From: Octopus vulgaris
Taxonomy: Eukaryota
Direction of reading: 5' to 3'
NCBI GenBank assembly: GCA_951406725.2
Contig: OX597818.1
Location: 65,782,001-65,846,000 of the forward strand
Length of the DNA: 64,000 bases
Shown: positions 34,352 to 46,609 of the stretch, in pieces
How positions within the stretch are numbered: the first letter of the stretch is position 1
How the letters are laid out: the number at the start of each line of letters is the position of its first letter
Notes under the pieces: generated by a model
What the model was told of the DNA's origin: nothing
What the model saw: the letters and a program-made list of their open reading frames with translations, nothing else
Databases searched by the model: none
Made by a program: the position numbers and the translations under genes

Positions 34352-35295
34352 AAGCTGCGAGCTGCCAGAAACTTTTGCACGCCGGGCGAAATGCGTAGCC
34401 GTATTTCGTCTGCCGTTACGTTTTGAGTTCTAATTCCGCCGAGGTCGACTTTACCTTTCATCCTTTCGAGATCGATAAATTAAGTACCAGTCACGCAATG
34501 GGGTCGATGTAATCGACTTAATCCGTTTGTCTGTCCTTGTTTGTCCCCTCTGTGTTTGGCCCCTTGTGGGTAGTAAAGAAATAGGTATTTCGTCTGCCGC
34601 TACATTCTGAGTTCAAATTCCGCGGTGGTCGAGTTTGCCTTTCATCATTTGGGGCTCGATAAATTAAGTACCAGTGACGCACTGGGGTCGATGTAATCGA
34701 CTTAATCCGTTTGTCTGTCCTTGTTTGTCCCCTTTGTGTTTGGCCCCTTGTGGGTAGTAAAGAAATAGGTATTTCGTCTGCCGCTACATTCTGAGTTCAA
34801 ATTCCGCGGTGGTCGAGTTTGCCTTTCATCATTTTGGGCTCGATAAATTAAGTACCAGTGACGCACTGGGGTCGATGTAATCGACTTAATCCGTTTGTCT
34901 GTCCTTGTTTGTCCCCTTTGTGTTTAACTCCTTGTGGGTAGTAAAGAAATCTGTATTTCGTCTTCCACTATGTTCTAAGTTCAAAATATGCCGAGATCGA
35001 CTTTGCTTTCATCATTTCGAGGTCGATTAAATAAGTACCAGTTACGCACTGGGGTCGATATAATAGACTTAATCCGTTTGTCTGTCCTTGTTTGTCTTTG
35101 CTTATCTCCTTGTGTGTAGTAAAGAAATAGGTATTTCATCTGTCTTTATAGGTTCAGATTTCAAATTCCGCCGAGGTCGACTTTGCCTTTCCTTCTTTCG
35201 TGATCGATAAATTAAGTAGCATTTACTTACTGGGGTCGATCCAATCGACTGTCACCTCCCTAAAAATGACAGGCCTTGCGCCAAGAGTAGAAATA
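34352..35295 (+). mobile_element. SINE family B (Meta-domain-like; possibly OR1-type) with five internal tandem units
   Basis: One head, then units starting at 34401, 34585, 34769, 34953 and 35131 (spacings 184, 184, 184, 178 bp). Each unit has a B-box-like GAGTTCAAATTCC and the CCTTTCATCCTTTCG.GGTCGATAAATTAAGTACCAG core. Candidate TSD TTT(A/G)TCTTTCAT at 34339-34350 and 35297-35308. Confidence 0.85.
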
Positions 35296-40254: not shown

Positions 40255-40840
40255 TTTACTATTCTAGGTACAAGGATCGAAAATTTGGGTGAGGGTGTCT
40301 GTCGATTAGATCGATCCCAATACGCAACTGGTACTTAATTTATCGTCCACTTAAGGATGAGAGGCAAAGTGGACTTCGGTGGAATTTGAACTCGGAGTGT
40401 AAAGACACAAAATACCTATTTCTATTTCTTTACTACCTACAAGGGGTTAAACCCAGAGAGGACAAAGAAGGACAGACAAACGGATTAAGTCGATTATATC
40501 AACCCCAGTGCGTCACTGGTACTTATTTAATCGACCTCAAAAGGATGAAAGGCAAAGTCGACCTCGGCGGAATTTGAACTCAGAACGTAGCGGCAGACGA
40601 AATAACTATTTCTTTACTACCCACAAGGGGCTAAGCACAGAGGGGACAAACAAGGACGGACAAACGGATTAAGTCGTTTACATCGACTCCAGTGTGTAAC
40701 TGATACTTAATTTATCGACCCCGAATTGATGAAAGGCAGAGTCCACCTGGGCGGAATTTGAACTGAGAACGTAACGGCAGGCGAAATACGGCTACGCATT
40801 TCGCCCGGCGTGCTAACGTCTCTGCCAGCTCGCCGCCTTC
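40255..40840 (-). mobile_element. SINE family B with three internal units
   Basis: Head at 40840 (AAGGCGGCGAGCTGGCAGA on minus) and three repeats of the GGCAAAGTCGACCTCGGCGGAATTTGAACTC unit. Confidence 0.85.
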
Positions 40841-42256: not shown

Positions 42257-42356
42257 TATATTAGCCAATTCATAGTGTCCAATCTGGGAACAAACTGTCA
42301 CAAAGCAAATATCGTGAAGTTACTATCTTGTATATATCCTTCACATTATAACAGAG

Positions 42357-42734
42357 TGGTCTGTTTTTTTTTGCCGTTTCCTCCCAGTTAGTGAAGTCGA
42401 TGTCACACTTTTTGAGGTTCGTTTCCAAGGAGTCCTTGTAGCGTTTCTTCTGGCCTCCTTTTGTACGCTTGCCGTCTTTGAGTTGGGAGTAGAAGATCCA
42501 TGAGGGAACGGCGACTTTCGAGTCGAAAATGTCTGCAGAGCTGGAGGAGAAAAGACGACGACGAAAGGAGCGCCAACAACAACCGGGTGCGACTCTCCCT
42601 TCCGGCACTAGATGTCCGCACTGCGACCGATCTTTTCAAGCAAGAATTGGTCTTATCGGTCACCTACGGACTCACCAGTAAATTTGCGCGAAGGCCATCA
42701 TCCTCAACCTTGAGGGATTGCCATCATGTATCAT
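42357..42734 (+). mobile_element. RTE-clade LINE 3' end with a 5' inversion
   Basis: Minus 42498-42352: IFYSQLKDGKRTKGGQKKRYKDSL...WEETAKKNRPL. Plus 42496-42681: IHEGTATFE...CPHCDRSFQARIGLIGHLRTHQ*, then the RTE-type tail ATCATCCTCAACCTTGAGGGATTGCCATCAT. TSD ATTATAACAGAG at 42345-42356 and 42735-42746. Confidence 0.9.
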
Positions 42735-43977: not shown

Positions 43978-46068
43978 AACAAGAGTATTCAGAGAGCGCA
44001 AACTTCCTCCAGGGCAATACCAATGTCCTTAATTTTTTTTATTCCTCTCAAGGGGTAAACATACGTCGCTTGTGGGGTCACAAAACAGGAAAAAACAAAA
44101 AGGACAACGTATGAAAACATGCAATGACAATTGAAAATGAAAAATGGAATGAAGCTACTCGGCCCCACCTCCGACAACCTTCATCTATACCTTTCTTCCT
44201 TTGAACTTTATTCCCTTATCTATCTCCACGTTGTATTCCTCTACGAGGTCTATGTAATCCACAGCCAACGGTAACTTATCCCTGTCAATGTCTAGCCCAC
44301 AGCAAGTGTATCTATATTTAAATTTTTCGACCCTTGCCCTTTGTTCCCCCCATATCAACAAGCGTATATACCACACCATCACATTATCATATTTATGCCT
44401 GTTTACCACTACTAAATCTTTCCATGACATCATTCGAGATTTCCTTTTACGGTTCGAGTTATTACATATAATTGCAAAGCAACAGTTTTCCTTAGCCAGG
44501 GGGGAGTGGGAGGAGTTTGGGGGCTTGTGTGTGAATGTGTCTTATTTTTTTTGTGTTTTGTATCGGAGGGGAGTGGTTAGGTTTGGTGCATGTGCGGGAG
44601 GGTGGGGCAGAAAAGGTGTGGATGGTGGGTTTGGGCTTTAAGTCTGTATCACTTTCCTTCTCCCGCTACTGATTTTTACTGTCTGCTATGTCTCACCTTC
44701 CTCACCTTCCTTCAGTGTTGCTGATTGCAAACTCTCCTCTTCTCTCGCCGGTTCCTCCCTGGGCTTCTCCTGGTTCTCTTAGTTGGCGCTCTTATCAGCT
44801 CGCTCTGATATGACCCTTTAGGCTCCATTTAAAGCATCGAGGAATTCTGCCCTCTATCCTCACTCTCATTGCTACTTCATCCACTCTGATAATCTCAATC
44901 ATGTTTTCCAGGACATCCACGGAGGCGTGGATTGTCATCTCAAACCTTTGTCCTCTCCACATTTCACTATGTATTTTTGTGGCCTGGAGAACCGTTATGT
45001 CGACCTCTTAATCCAAGAGAACAGCGGCTACTATCCAGGCTACATCTATCTCTGGTGGATTTCTTCAACTCTGACTCTCGTTGCACGACCTCCCAGGTAA
45101 GTGGGTAGAAGCACTAATTCTCCATCCTTGATAGTCCTCGCTACTTACTTCTCAGCAATTCCTTTGAACCTTGCTTCTAATTTTCCAAATATTGTTATTC
45201 TTGGAATGTATACAATGTCCTGCCAAATTCGCCTCAATGCTTTTTCAGCTTGCCCTGTAGTTATCATATCAATTTTGTCTGCTTTTATCGAGTACGTTTT
45301 ATACGATATTGTTCTTTCTCTTAAGTCTTTCATTGTTTCTTGCCGGAGGGGGTCAATTCCACATTAGAACCGTCCTTACTCATCATTTTCTGATAGTTTG
45401 CAATTTTTTCTATGTCTACTTCGTTGTCTTGGCGTCTCGCCACATATGCGAACTTTCTGTCTTCCTTCATGTTCTCGTTCATTTTCCCAATGACTTGCAA
45501 CAATTCGTCTTCGGAAGAAGAGAACTCAGAACCACTGAGGTCTGAATAGAACATTTATAGTTTTTACTTTTTCCCATTGGGCCAACTCTCCTCATAAAAT
45601 GATGGAAAGCACAAACATACTGCCGCAAGGCAGCACAAAACAGTCATCACAGTGTTTAAAAAAAACTGACACAAAATTAAATAGATATGAACAATATGAA
45701 CAACACTGAAAATTACAAGCTGCAAAACACCCGAGGCAACACCAACGTCCTCTCAATGGTTAGCCAGGGATGATGTTTTAAATGAAAATATCTGAAATAA
45801 ACTGGATTCCTCTCACGAAAGAGAATACTAAGAATCAACCCAACCGTTCTCAAAAATTAAGTATTATGAAAAACAGGACAAATAATCCAGAATCCTTGTC
45901 AGGTACCGGATCGATCCCAAAATCTAATCATTGTGTGCCAGTCACGAGTCAAATCTTCACTGAAAGTTTCATCCGAATCCATCCGGAGATATCTTGTCCA
46001 CGGACAAACATACAAAACTACAAACACGACAGAAAACAATACCCCGCTTTCGCTAAGGCGGAAGTAAT
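43978..46068 (+). mobile_element. Helentron/DINE-1-like non-autonomous element (43978-44029 plus 45735-46068), split by a retroelement insertion
   Basis: 5' part AACAAGAGTATTCAGAGAGCGCAAACTTCCTCC; 3' part with GACAAACATACAAA repeats and terminal hairpin TACCCCGCTT-TCGCT-AAGGCGGAAGTA. The halves are joined through the duplicated 17-21 bp. Family assignment is from memory of such termini. Confidence 0.5.
44030..45734 (-). mobile_element. ORF1-only polyadenylated retroelement (HAL1-like; Tx1/L1-type ORF1), decayed
   Basis: Minus strand has a roughly 160-bp leader, a disrupted reading frame at about 45577-44185 with a decayed CCHC knuckle RCFKWSLKGHIRAS* (44836-44795), a short 3' UTR, and AATAAA plus an A-tail at 44043-44033. 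TSD GGCAA(T/C)ACCAA(T/C)GTCCT at 44013-44029 and 45735-45751. No RT or endonuclease motifs seen. Confidence 0.7.
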
Positions 46069-46609
46069 AAATAGCTGAAGAATGCCATAAGTCATTTGCA
46101 TGTCATAATACAACCTATCATTGTGTCAATCTTTGAATGACGAGAGACTCTTTTGAAAGTTGCTGGCAACATGCTTTTCGCTGTAATTTTACTTTCATTA
46201 GAGCATATATTTAGAGAAGGGTAGAAGTTCATTCTTCGTTAATAGCGTTATTTGAAATTCAACATCTCACATATAAAACTTTAAAAACGCGTTTAGTTTA
46301 GAATAAATGAATCTCGGCCACAATTTATATCTTTGAGTTTTCAGCTCTGTATATTCTACAGCTACTTGCAACTCGAACGTAATTCTGAGACGTGATCAGC
46401 GCGGCACAATGCTACCGGACAGATGCTTTAAATTATGCAGACAATCTAACTGACAGACTTCCCCACAGTTTAAGCGTTTCTGCTAGTGACAGCATTGACC
46501 GGTTTGGGGGCACAAAAAACATGGCACTTGCACTAGGAACGAACGTGGGAGTTGTGTACTGTGAAACGAGGTTTCTGACGATTAAGCCAAACTGCAACTC
46601 TGTCCTTTC

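What the first reader, a model, noticed from the sequence alone, without database searches (positions are those of the whole stretch)
44013..45751. ORF1-only (HAL1-like) retrotransposon with poly(A) and TSD, inserted in a Helentron-like element
Seen: a 1.7 kb unit bounded by a 17-bp TSD (15/17 match; 17/21 if extended), with an AATAAA/A-tail. It has one long decayed frame of about 450 codons: an acidic Ser-rich N-terminus, a Tx1-like LPTYLG..ATRVRV region, a CCHC knuckle, an acidic and Pro-rich linker, and an unrecognised C-terminal domain (44433-44185). There are no motifs or room for ORF2. Ordinary truncation keeps the 3' (RT) end, so an ORF1-plus-poly(A) unit implies a dedicated non-autonomous family. 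Known: HAL1 elements have this layout in mammals and some other eukaryotes. Inference: a possibly undescribed cephalopod family mobilised in trans.
Basis: partly seen in the sequence, partly recalled or inferred. Interest (0 to 1): 0.75.

Follow-up and report, generated by a model that had tools for sequence, protein, structure and literature searches.

The report
Octopus half-LINE targeting other transposons
This is an old, broken copy of a widespread octopus jumping gene that keeps only an RNA-binding gene, likely borrows its copying enzyme from full-length relatives that end in the same sequence, and in this lineage landed again and again at one exact base inside another small transposon, possibly to use a promoter there.

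Summary
Real. The window holds a decayed 1,705-bp element (minus strand, 44030-45734) between 17-bp repeats (15/17), inside a ~370-bp Helentron-like repeat. It belongs to a family of at least 127 distinct copies examined, all with ORF1 (predicted two RRM-type folds, a CCHC knuckle, an unassigned C-terminal domain) followed directly by a short 3' UTR. ORF1 was under purifying selection between subfamilies (dN/dS 0.07-0.21). Intact L1/Tx1-type LINEs in the same genome share the last ~60 nt and a homologous ORF1. Corrections: there is no poly(A) tail (fixed AATAAA..AT(T/C)A end), and the site is not random. Thirty-five junctions sit at this same base of the host; other subfamilies favour one base of a SINE or a mariner. 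Truncated copies, unrelated lineages at one site and A-to-G-edited copies show repeated retrotransposition, not hitch-hiking. Several sites lie ~30 bp behind a TATA box, suggesting promoter borrowing (inferred). No full LINE was found at this host site (0 of 35). The scan already reported this system on other DNA of this genome; this target site had no look-alike note. ORF1-only LINEs and transposon-targeting Tx1 are each known; I did not find the combination in print.

The parts
44030..45734 (-). ORF1-only non-autonomous retroelement (half-LINE), 1,705 bp, decayed copy
   Evidence: 78% identical over 55-1699 of 1706 bases to a copy on contig C2
45735..45751 (-). 5' copy of the 17-bp target repeat; identical to the host consensus in this copy, but more diverged than the adjoining host DNA across 10 full-length copies
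44013..44029 (-). 3' copy of the 17-bp target repeat; its first base marks the recurrent insertion point
44185..45577 (-). Decayed ORF1, about 464 codons, at least five frame changes
   Evidence: homologous to ORF1 of intact LINEs in the genome at about 35-42% identity over the core
44845..45340 (-). Region encoding two predicted RRM/ferredoxin-type domains (limits approximate, mapped from relative L234)
   Evidence: AlphaFold2 model of L234 with 143-row alignment, pLDDT mostly 80-98 over residues 1-200; tandem-RRM matches E 2e-4 to 1e-3; La RRM Z 9.0, rmsd 2.6, 83 aligned
44795..44836 (-). CCHC zinc knuckle, damaged in this copy
   Evidence: zf-CCHC at E 0.0013 and 0.0026 in relatives L023 and L029, below Pfam's cut-off
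44185..44480 (-). C-terminal domain conserved among ORF1-only copies; no family assigned
   Evidence: alignment; 150 scored genome matches of 493 candidates; no Pfam hit; no BLASTP hit to the LINE ORFs shown
44030..44095 (-). 3' tail shared with intact LINEs and, over its last ~40 nt, with an abundant SINE; fixed AATAAA-containing end, no poly(A)
45752..46071 (-). 5' part of the ~370-bp Helentron-like (HINE-type) host repeat, with a terminal palindrome
45776..45782 (-). TTTAAAA, a TATA-like word of the host 31 bases before the insertion point (promoter role inferred only)
43978..44012 (-). 3' end of the host repeat (3' subterminal inverted repeat, stem-loop, T-rich end)
   Evidence: an exact 24-mer across the empty site occurs 534 times, reversed control 0

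Best explanation
The element is a dead copy of a dedicated ORF1-only retrotransposon family that is derived from L1/Tx1-type LINEs of the same genome, was copied through RNA, likely borrowed the endonuclease and reverse transcriptase of a full-length LINE through their shared 3' tail, and inserted repeatedly at one base of a Helentron-like repeat. Shown: the ORF1-only layout across the family, ORF1 homology and tail sharing with intact LINEs, purifying selection on ORF1, TSDs, recurrent target sites, and RNA-editing marks in some copies. Inferred: the source copy's RNA is coated by its own ORF1 protein; a partner ORF2 protein binds the tail, nicks the target and reverse transcribes from the fixed 3' end without a poly(A) tail; the duplication rebuilds the target at the 5' end so later copies stack in tandem. 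More weakly inferred: favoured sites lie at transcription starts of the target repeats, so a full-length copy is transcribed from the host's promoter and carries the target repeat at its own 5' end.
For: Family: 55 DNA matches among 40 scored of 208 candidates; 150 scored of 493 candidates for the C-terminal domain; 127 distinct element ends with the tail within 750 bp of that domain. In the 40 longer regions the tail follows ORF1 directly wherever both were found. TSDs at unrelated sites: 31 of 127 passed a strict score (12-26 bp). Partner candidates: intact ORF2s of 1,125-1,148 aa with APE, RT and zf-RVT; 21 of 30 LINE loci matched the element's tail model at the expected place; ORF1 identity about 35-42%. 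Selection: dN/dS 0.07-0.21 in 29 of 36 subfamily-consensus pairs (7 saturated), against 0.77 for this copy versus its clade consensus. Repeated insertion at the host site: a 5'-truncated copy with its own TSD (L112), lineages only about 33% identical in ORF1 at the same base, 35 exact tail-target junctions with reversed controls 0. RNA stage: sense-strand A>G excess in L007 (83 vs 11 T>C), L017 (53 vs 10), L010 (75 vs 21), P below 3e-6. In a set chosen by protein alone, 24 of 75 ends sat at four recurrent sites (6 host, 7 SINE, 8 mariner, 3 another). At the mariner site 3 of 8 pattern matches had ORF2 upstream and 2 had ORF1 only; young ORF1-only relatives stack with intact LINEs. Promoter link: TATAAA 22-36 bases before the insertion in 6 of 21 non-tandem sites against a 1.3% background; young arrays start about 28 bases behind a TATAAA; the 5' repeat differs from host consensus at 39 of 170 bases against 28 of 310 in the adjoining host DNA (P 5e-5) and 33 of 323 in 3' copies (P 2.5e-4).
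Against: No ORF2 lay within 1.5 kb upstream of any of the 35 exact junctions at this host site, while the same profile found ORF2 in 19 of 19 control LINE ends, so the partner for this site is not identified. Most copies (51 of 75) are at none of the four recurrent sites. Three of the six TATAAA cases are one mariner site, so independent support is four site types; 15 of 21 sites had none. The word at this host site is TTTAAAA, not TATAAA, and the SINE site is not TATA-type. The 5'-versus-3' repeat comparison used different mismatch caps (3' capped at 5 of 17, upstream at 7 of 31, 5' uncapped), which favours the difference; this window's own 5' repeat has 0 mismatches and the copy shows no significant A>G excess (30 vs 14, P 0.09). 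Alignments for dN/dS were stitched from tblastn pieces, which favours conserved stretches. Trans-mobilisation was not tested by experiment.
Confidence: 0.85

Rival explanations
1. One ancient insertion into the Helentron-like repeat was then amplified as a DNA passenger of that repeat, so the recurrent site reflects hitch-hiking.
For: Several loci share both outer host ends with the window (46070 and 43974). Young arrays also sit inside a Helentron-like repeat with shared outer ends.
Against: Truncated copy L112 has its own TSD at the site; lineages about 33% identical in ORF1 use the same base; host-site copies are spread over several branches; host DNA beside the insert is closer to consensus than the insert's 5' repeat; A>G-edited copies; most copies lie outside this host.
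Confidence: 0.05
2. The copies are independent deletion or premature-end products of ordinary full-length LINEs, not a self-perpetuating family.
For: ORF1 is homologous to LINE ORF1 and the tail is shared. A second ORF1-only lineage falls among LINE ORF1s (AU p 0.042 against one clade), so ORF2 loss likely happened more than once.
Against: 16 ORF1-only rows form their own clade (98/99) apart from 13 LINE ORF1s; subfamilies are near saturation at silent sites yet keep ORF1; they have their own C-terminal domain and 3' UTR, with no match to LINE DNA beyond the tail.
Confidence: 0.04
3. Same family and mechanism, but site choice is carried by the element itself (target sequence in its RNA, or its ORF1 C-terminal domain) rather than by a site-specific partner endonuclease.
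For: 0 of 35 junctions at the host site belong to an ORF2-bearing LINE; target class follows the ORF1 tree (9 changes against a shuffled mean of 17.5, 0 of 1000 as low); 5' repeats look inherited.
Against: At the mariner site and in the young arrays full LINEs use the same or an adjacent site. Kin share labels, so clustering on the tree does not show cause. Kojima 2015 (PMC4494074, passages) states that target choice is mainly set by the endonuclease.
Confidence: 0.25
4. Retrocopy of a host RNA-binding gene.
For: RRM-type folds and CCHC knuckles occur in host proteins.
Against: The closest homologues in the genome are LINE ORF1s directly upstream of ORF2; the tail is a LINE tail; many diverged subfamilies.
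Confidence: 0.01

Closest known systems
HAL1 (half-L1), and the class of ORF1-present non-autonomous LINEs with HeT-A (Jockey clade) and Ag-Sponge (CR1 clade) (PMC5753468, PMC5786205; passages read; Bao and Jurka 2010 itself was not available)
   Same: Encodes only ORF1, derives from a LINE, needs a partner's ORF2, likely arose more than once.
   Different: Octopus host; ORF1 is of the two-RRM plus CCHC type; no poly(A) tail and a shared ~60-nt tail instead; preference for fixed sites in other repeats; an extra C-terminal domain.
Tx1-clade LINEs that target other transposons: Xenopus Tx1 in Tx1D; crocodilian Tx1-Mar and SINEU in Mariner-N4_AMi; Tx1-9_AMi in Harbinger elements (PMC4494074; passages read)
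   Same: Insertion at preferred positions in DNA transposons, tandem stacking, non-autonomous riders with the same preference, hitch-hiking excluded by truncated copies, transcription from the flank proposed.
   Different: The rider here encodes a protein under selection; targets include a Helentron-like repeat and a SINE; several targets within one clade; preference is partial (24 of 75 at four sites).
HeT-A/TART arrays of Drosophila telomeres (PMC5786205 passage; array details recalled)
   Same: ORF1-only and complete elements mixed in head-to-tail arrays (young relatives).
   Different: Arrays are interstitial, inside other transposons, and from a different LINE clade.
HINE / DINE-1 non-autonomous Helentrons (PMC4067079; passages read) - for the host repeat
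   Same: Subterminal inverted repeats, palindrome at the 5' end, 3' stem-loop, T-rich ends, no coding capacity.
   Different: No autonomous Helentron partner was sought; the assignment rests on end structure.

Membership tests
ORF1-present non-autonomous LINE (HAL1-like) | Encodes ORF1 only, no ORF2, as a family trait | tested here: met
ORF1-present non-autonomous LINE (HAL1-like) | ORF1 homologous to that of an autonomous LINE | tested here: met
   about 35-42% identity over the core, E down to 1e-40; tree
ORF1-present non-autonomous LINE (HAL1-like) | ORF1 kept by selection during spread | tested here: met
   dN/dS 0.07-0.21 in 29 of 36 pairs, 7 saturated
ORF1-present non-autonomous LINE (HAL1-like) | Retrotransposition hallmarks (TSDs, 5' truncation) | tested here: met
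   31 of 127 with strict TSDs; truncated copies L103, L112
ORF1-present non-autonomous LINE (HAL1-like) | Mobilised in trans by the partner's ORF2 | not testable with these tools
   inferred from the shared tail and shared sites
HAL1 in the strict sense | Derived from the L1 clade proper | tested here: inconclusive
   Partner ORF2 is closest to human L1 ORF2 among solved structures (E 3.5e-66) and to fish elements with ZCCHC3-type RNA-binding domains (29%); no RT tree with named L1 and Tx1 references was built
HAL1 in the strict sense | Poly(A) tail (recalled as an L1/HAL1 trait, not from a call) | tested here: not met
   longest 3' A run 2-10 nt in 127 of 127, followed by a fixed end
Tx1 clade (partner LINE) | Two ORFs; ORF2 with APE endonuclease, RT and C-terminal zinc domain (also true of L1) | tested here: met
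Tx1 clade (partner LINE) | RT groups with reference Tx1 elements | not tested
   no named reference RTs were returned by the tools; 'Tx1' rests on domain layout, ORF1 type and target preference
Tx1 clade (partner LINE) | Target preference for multicopy sequences | tested here: met
   LINE ends at the mariner site (3 of 8 matches) and at the young-array site; not found at this window's host site (0 of 35)
HINE / non-autonomous Helentron (host repeat) | Subterminal inverted repeats, 5' palindrome, 3' stem-loop, T-rich ends | tested here: met
   consensus of 20 empty copies, self-match 15-42 to the 3' end, folds
HINE / non-autonomous Helentron (host repeat) | Autonomous Rep/helicase partner with the same ends | not tested
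   not searched

The most novel reading that the evidence does not exclude
Octopus genomes hold an old, still-renewing radiation of promoterless ORF1-only half-LINEs that seek the transcription start of other repeats (Helentron-like, mariner, SINE, LTR-like), are transcribed from the promoter they land on, and inherit their target through sequence carried in their own RNA or through their novel ORF1 C-terminal domain, so that one partner enzyme serves many heritable, switchable targets.
Probability: 0.25. Interest if true: 0.78.

Novelty: new variant of a known kind. Interest (0 to 1): 0.52.

Why it matters
ORF1-only LINE derivatives are described for the L1, Jockey and CR1 clades, and Tx1 elements that target other transposons are described, but I did not find the two together or in a cephalopod (searches; open-access library only; Repbase and paper supplements not seen). 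A single clade that has switched among several fixed targets, with intact young relatives beside intact LINEs, is a natural test set for two open questions: why a non-autonomous element keeps ORF1 under selection, and how non-LTR retrotransposons change target. The window copy itself is old and dead; its value is as a marker of one more target site.

Tried and rejected
Folding L234 without an alignment gave pLDDT 34 and was discarded; the C-terminal domain stayed low-confidence with the alignment and was not folded alone, so its fold is open. Pfam gave no family for that domain. The ESM Atlas search with P0001 gave only leads at 0.87-0.90, including ZCCHC3-like clusters. Rfam on 18 loci found only microsatellite-driven miRNA matches below the gathering scores, so snRNA or tRNA genes are not the targets there. 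Expression: no RNA holder listed on record; contigs of four guessed-RNA runs cover a young relative but cannot show starts, ends or transcription; not used as evidence. A tight junction pattern found one match and was loosened. The idea that the direct repeats are LTR remnants was dropped because they match the host and differ by target. The idea that every subfamily has a strict target was dropped. Eight duplicate or mis-called rows were left out of the 103-row alignment before tree building, and 39 of 142 rows had too little coverage to enter it; the careful tree used 31 chosen rows.

Full report
Observation. The repeats at 44013-44029 and 45735-45751 match at 15 of 17 bases and enclose 1,705 bp on the minus strand. 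The frame runs from ATG 45577 to the stop at 44185, about 464 codons, across at least five frame changes; the knuckle has lost two of its cysteines in this copy. The element interrupts a ~370-bp non-coding repeat: an exact 24-mer across the empty site occurs 534 times (reversed control 0), the window's host halves are 85-87% identical to the consensus of 20 of 30 empty copies, and the ends show the inverted repeats, 5' palindrome, 3' stem-loop and T-rich termini described for HINEs (PMC4067079, passages). Named homologues of the protein come from Octopus vulgaris, O. sinensis, O. bimaculoides and Argonauta hians (8 of 10 looked up had names), so the family is octopod.

Family. A DNA search gave 55 matches among 40 scored of 208 candidates; the C-terminal domain gave 150 scored of 493 candidates. 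From the loci fetched I called 127 distinct element ends with the tail within 750 bp of that domain. In the 40 longer regions the 3' UTR follows ORF1 directly wherever both were found. There is no poly(A): the longest 3' A run was 2-10 nt in all 127.

Protein. A model of relative L234 built on a 143-row alignment is confident over residues 1-200 and matches tandem RRM proteins (best E 2e-4); the first domain matches La RRM at Z 9.0, rmsd 2.6, 83 aligned, and the second matches ferredoxin-like ACT and ribosomal S6 domains at similar Z, so 'RRM-type fold' is the safe reading and RNA binding is inferred. The knuckle matches retroviral nucleocapsid fingers weakly (E 6e-4). The C-terminal domain has no assigned family. 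Between nine subfamily consensuses dN/dS was 0.07-0.21 in 29 of 36 pairs (7 saturated); copies against their own consensus gave pN/pS 0.40-0.71 and the window copy dN/dS 0.77. The protein was therefore needed while the elements spread, and decayed after insertion.

Partner. The genome holds many intact two-ORF LINEs with APE, RT and zf-RVT. Twenty-one of 30 such loci matched the element's tail model at the expected place; the shared part is about 60 nt, and an abundant 184-bp SINE shares the last ~40. Their ORF1 is about 35-42% identical to the ORF1-only protein over the core. In a 31-row tree 16 ORF1-only rows form one clade (98/99) apart from 13 LINE ORF1s, and two others fall outside it (AU p 0.042), which weakly favours at least two origins. 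Tx1 versus L1 was not settled by an RT tree; Tx1 is the likelier label from ORF1 type, nearest database relatives and target preference.

Targets. The insertion point is recurrent. Exact tail-target junctions at this host base number 35 (29+2+4, reversed controls 0); 28 had an ORF1 or C-terminal-domain hit within 1.5 kb upstream (two of them weak) and none had ORF2, while the ORF2 profile found 19 of 19 control LINE ends. In a set chosen by protein similarity alone, 24 of 75 ends sat at four recurrent sites: 6 here, 7 in the SINE head, 8 just upstream of a mariner-like transposase frame (recognised by eye from its translation), 3 in another repeat; 51 were elsewhere, 13 of the 90 loci had no tail called and 2 were duplicates. 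Target class clusters on the ORF1 tree but switches (9 changes, shuffled mean 17.5, 0 of 1000 as low). Hitch-hiking on the Helentron-like host is excluded as the sole cause by a truncated copy with its own TSD (L112), by very different lineages at one base, and by copies with strong sense-strand A>G excess, the mark expected of ADAR editing before reverse transcription (L007, L017, L010). At the mariner site full LINEs are present (3 of 8 matches), and young intact ORF1-only relatives stack head to tail with intact LINEs inside a second Helentron-like repeat at 18 arrays examined.

Promoter link. TATAAA lies 22-36 bases before the insertion in 6 of 21 non-tandem sites (background 1.3%), though three are one mariner site. 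The young arrays start about 28 bases behind a TATAAA. At this window's site the word is TTTAAAA, 31 bases upstream. In 10 full-length host-site copies the 5' repeat is more diverged from host consensus (39 of 170 bases) than the host DNA beside it (28 of 310) or the 3' repeats (33 of 323), with shared changes, as expected if it travels in the RNA from a start near the insertion point; unequal mismatch caps favour this result and the window's own 5' repeat is unchanged. I put promoter borrowing at about 45% for this site. No transcript ends could be read.

Comparison and novelty. ORF1-only LINEs are known as HAL1 (L1), HeT-A (Jockey) and Ag-Sponge (CR1) (PMC5753468, PMC5786205; passages). Tx1 families that target DNA transposons, with SINE riders and proposed transcription from the flank, are known (PMC4494074; passages). 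Two octopus repeat surveys list L1-Tx1 but their main texts do not mention ORF1 (PMC13282606, first of three parts read plus term search; PMC8967140, term search); their supplements and Repbase were not seen and may hold such consensus sequences. Literature searches found no description of the combination. This scan has already reported the same system on other DNA of this genome (SINE site, Helitron trains, start-site landing, editing marks); a search with this element and host found no look-alike note. My TATA test and array analysis came before I read those notes; the editing test followed them.

Verdict. A real, dead member of an ORF1-only, tail-sharing, site-preferring retrotransposon family: a new variant of a known kind.

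Noticed in passing
window 34401-35250 and 40301-40788: Tandem arrays of a 184-bp SINE unit; the same SINE elsewhere ends in the last ~40 nt of the LINE tail and stacks into its own copies at two fixed positions.
   Followed up: partly
window 42270-42663 (-): 3' end of an RTE-type LINE (C-terminal motif recognised by eye, recalled), about 1.3 kb from the element.
   Followed up: no
L212 1260-6400; L213; arrays at 18 loci (L309-L344): Young ORF1-only subfamilies (89-97% identical to the query copy, some with open frames) in mixed head-to-tail arrays with intact LINEs inside a second Helentron-like repeat that itself carries a fragment of ORF1; that fragment supplies both the TATAAA word and the insertion site.
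   Followed up: partly
L030, L092, L128, L231: Other copies sit in the same Helentron-like host in reverse orientation at different positions.
   Followed up: no
L102 5200-5550: The last ~60 nt of the element plus 15 nt of target are repeated four times in tandem, as from repeated template jumps with target sequence in the RNA.
   Followed up: no
L174, L175, L215 (C2:73.04-73.07 Mb): Head-to-tail array of an intact LINE family that did not match the tail model.
   Followed up: no
L222 and L226: Near-identical copies inserted inside a LINE ORF2; probably a segmental duplication.
   Followed up: no
L101 1-1473 (+): 491-codon open frame that looks like a Penelope-type RT with GIY-YIG end (by eye).
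   Followed up: no
P0010: A database protein that is this ORF1 is annotated as 'EPM2A-interacting 1-like'; several others are annotated as uncharacterised octopus genes, so these elements inflate gene sets.
   Followed up: no
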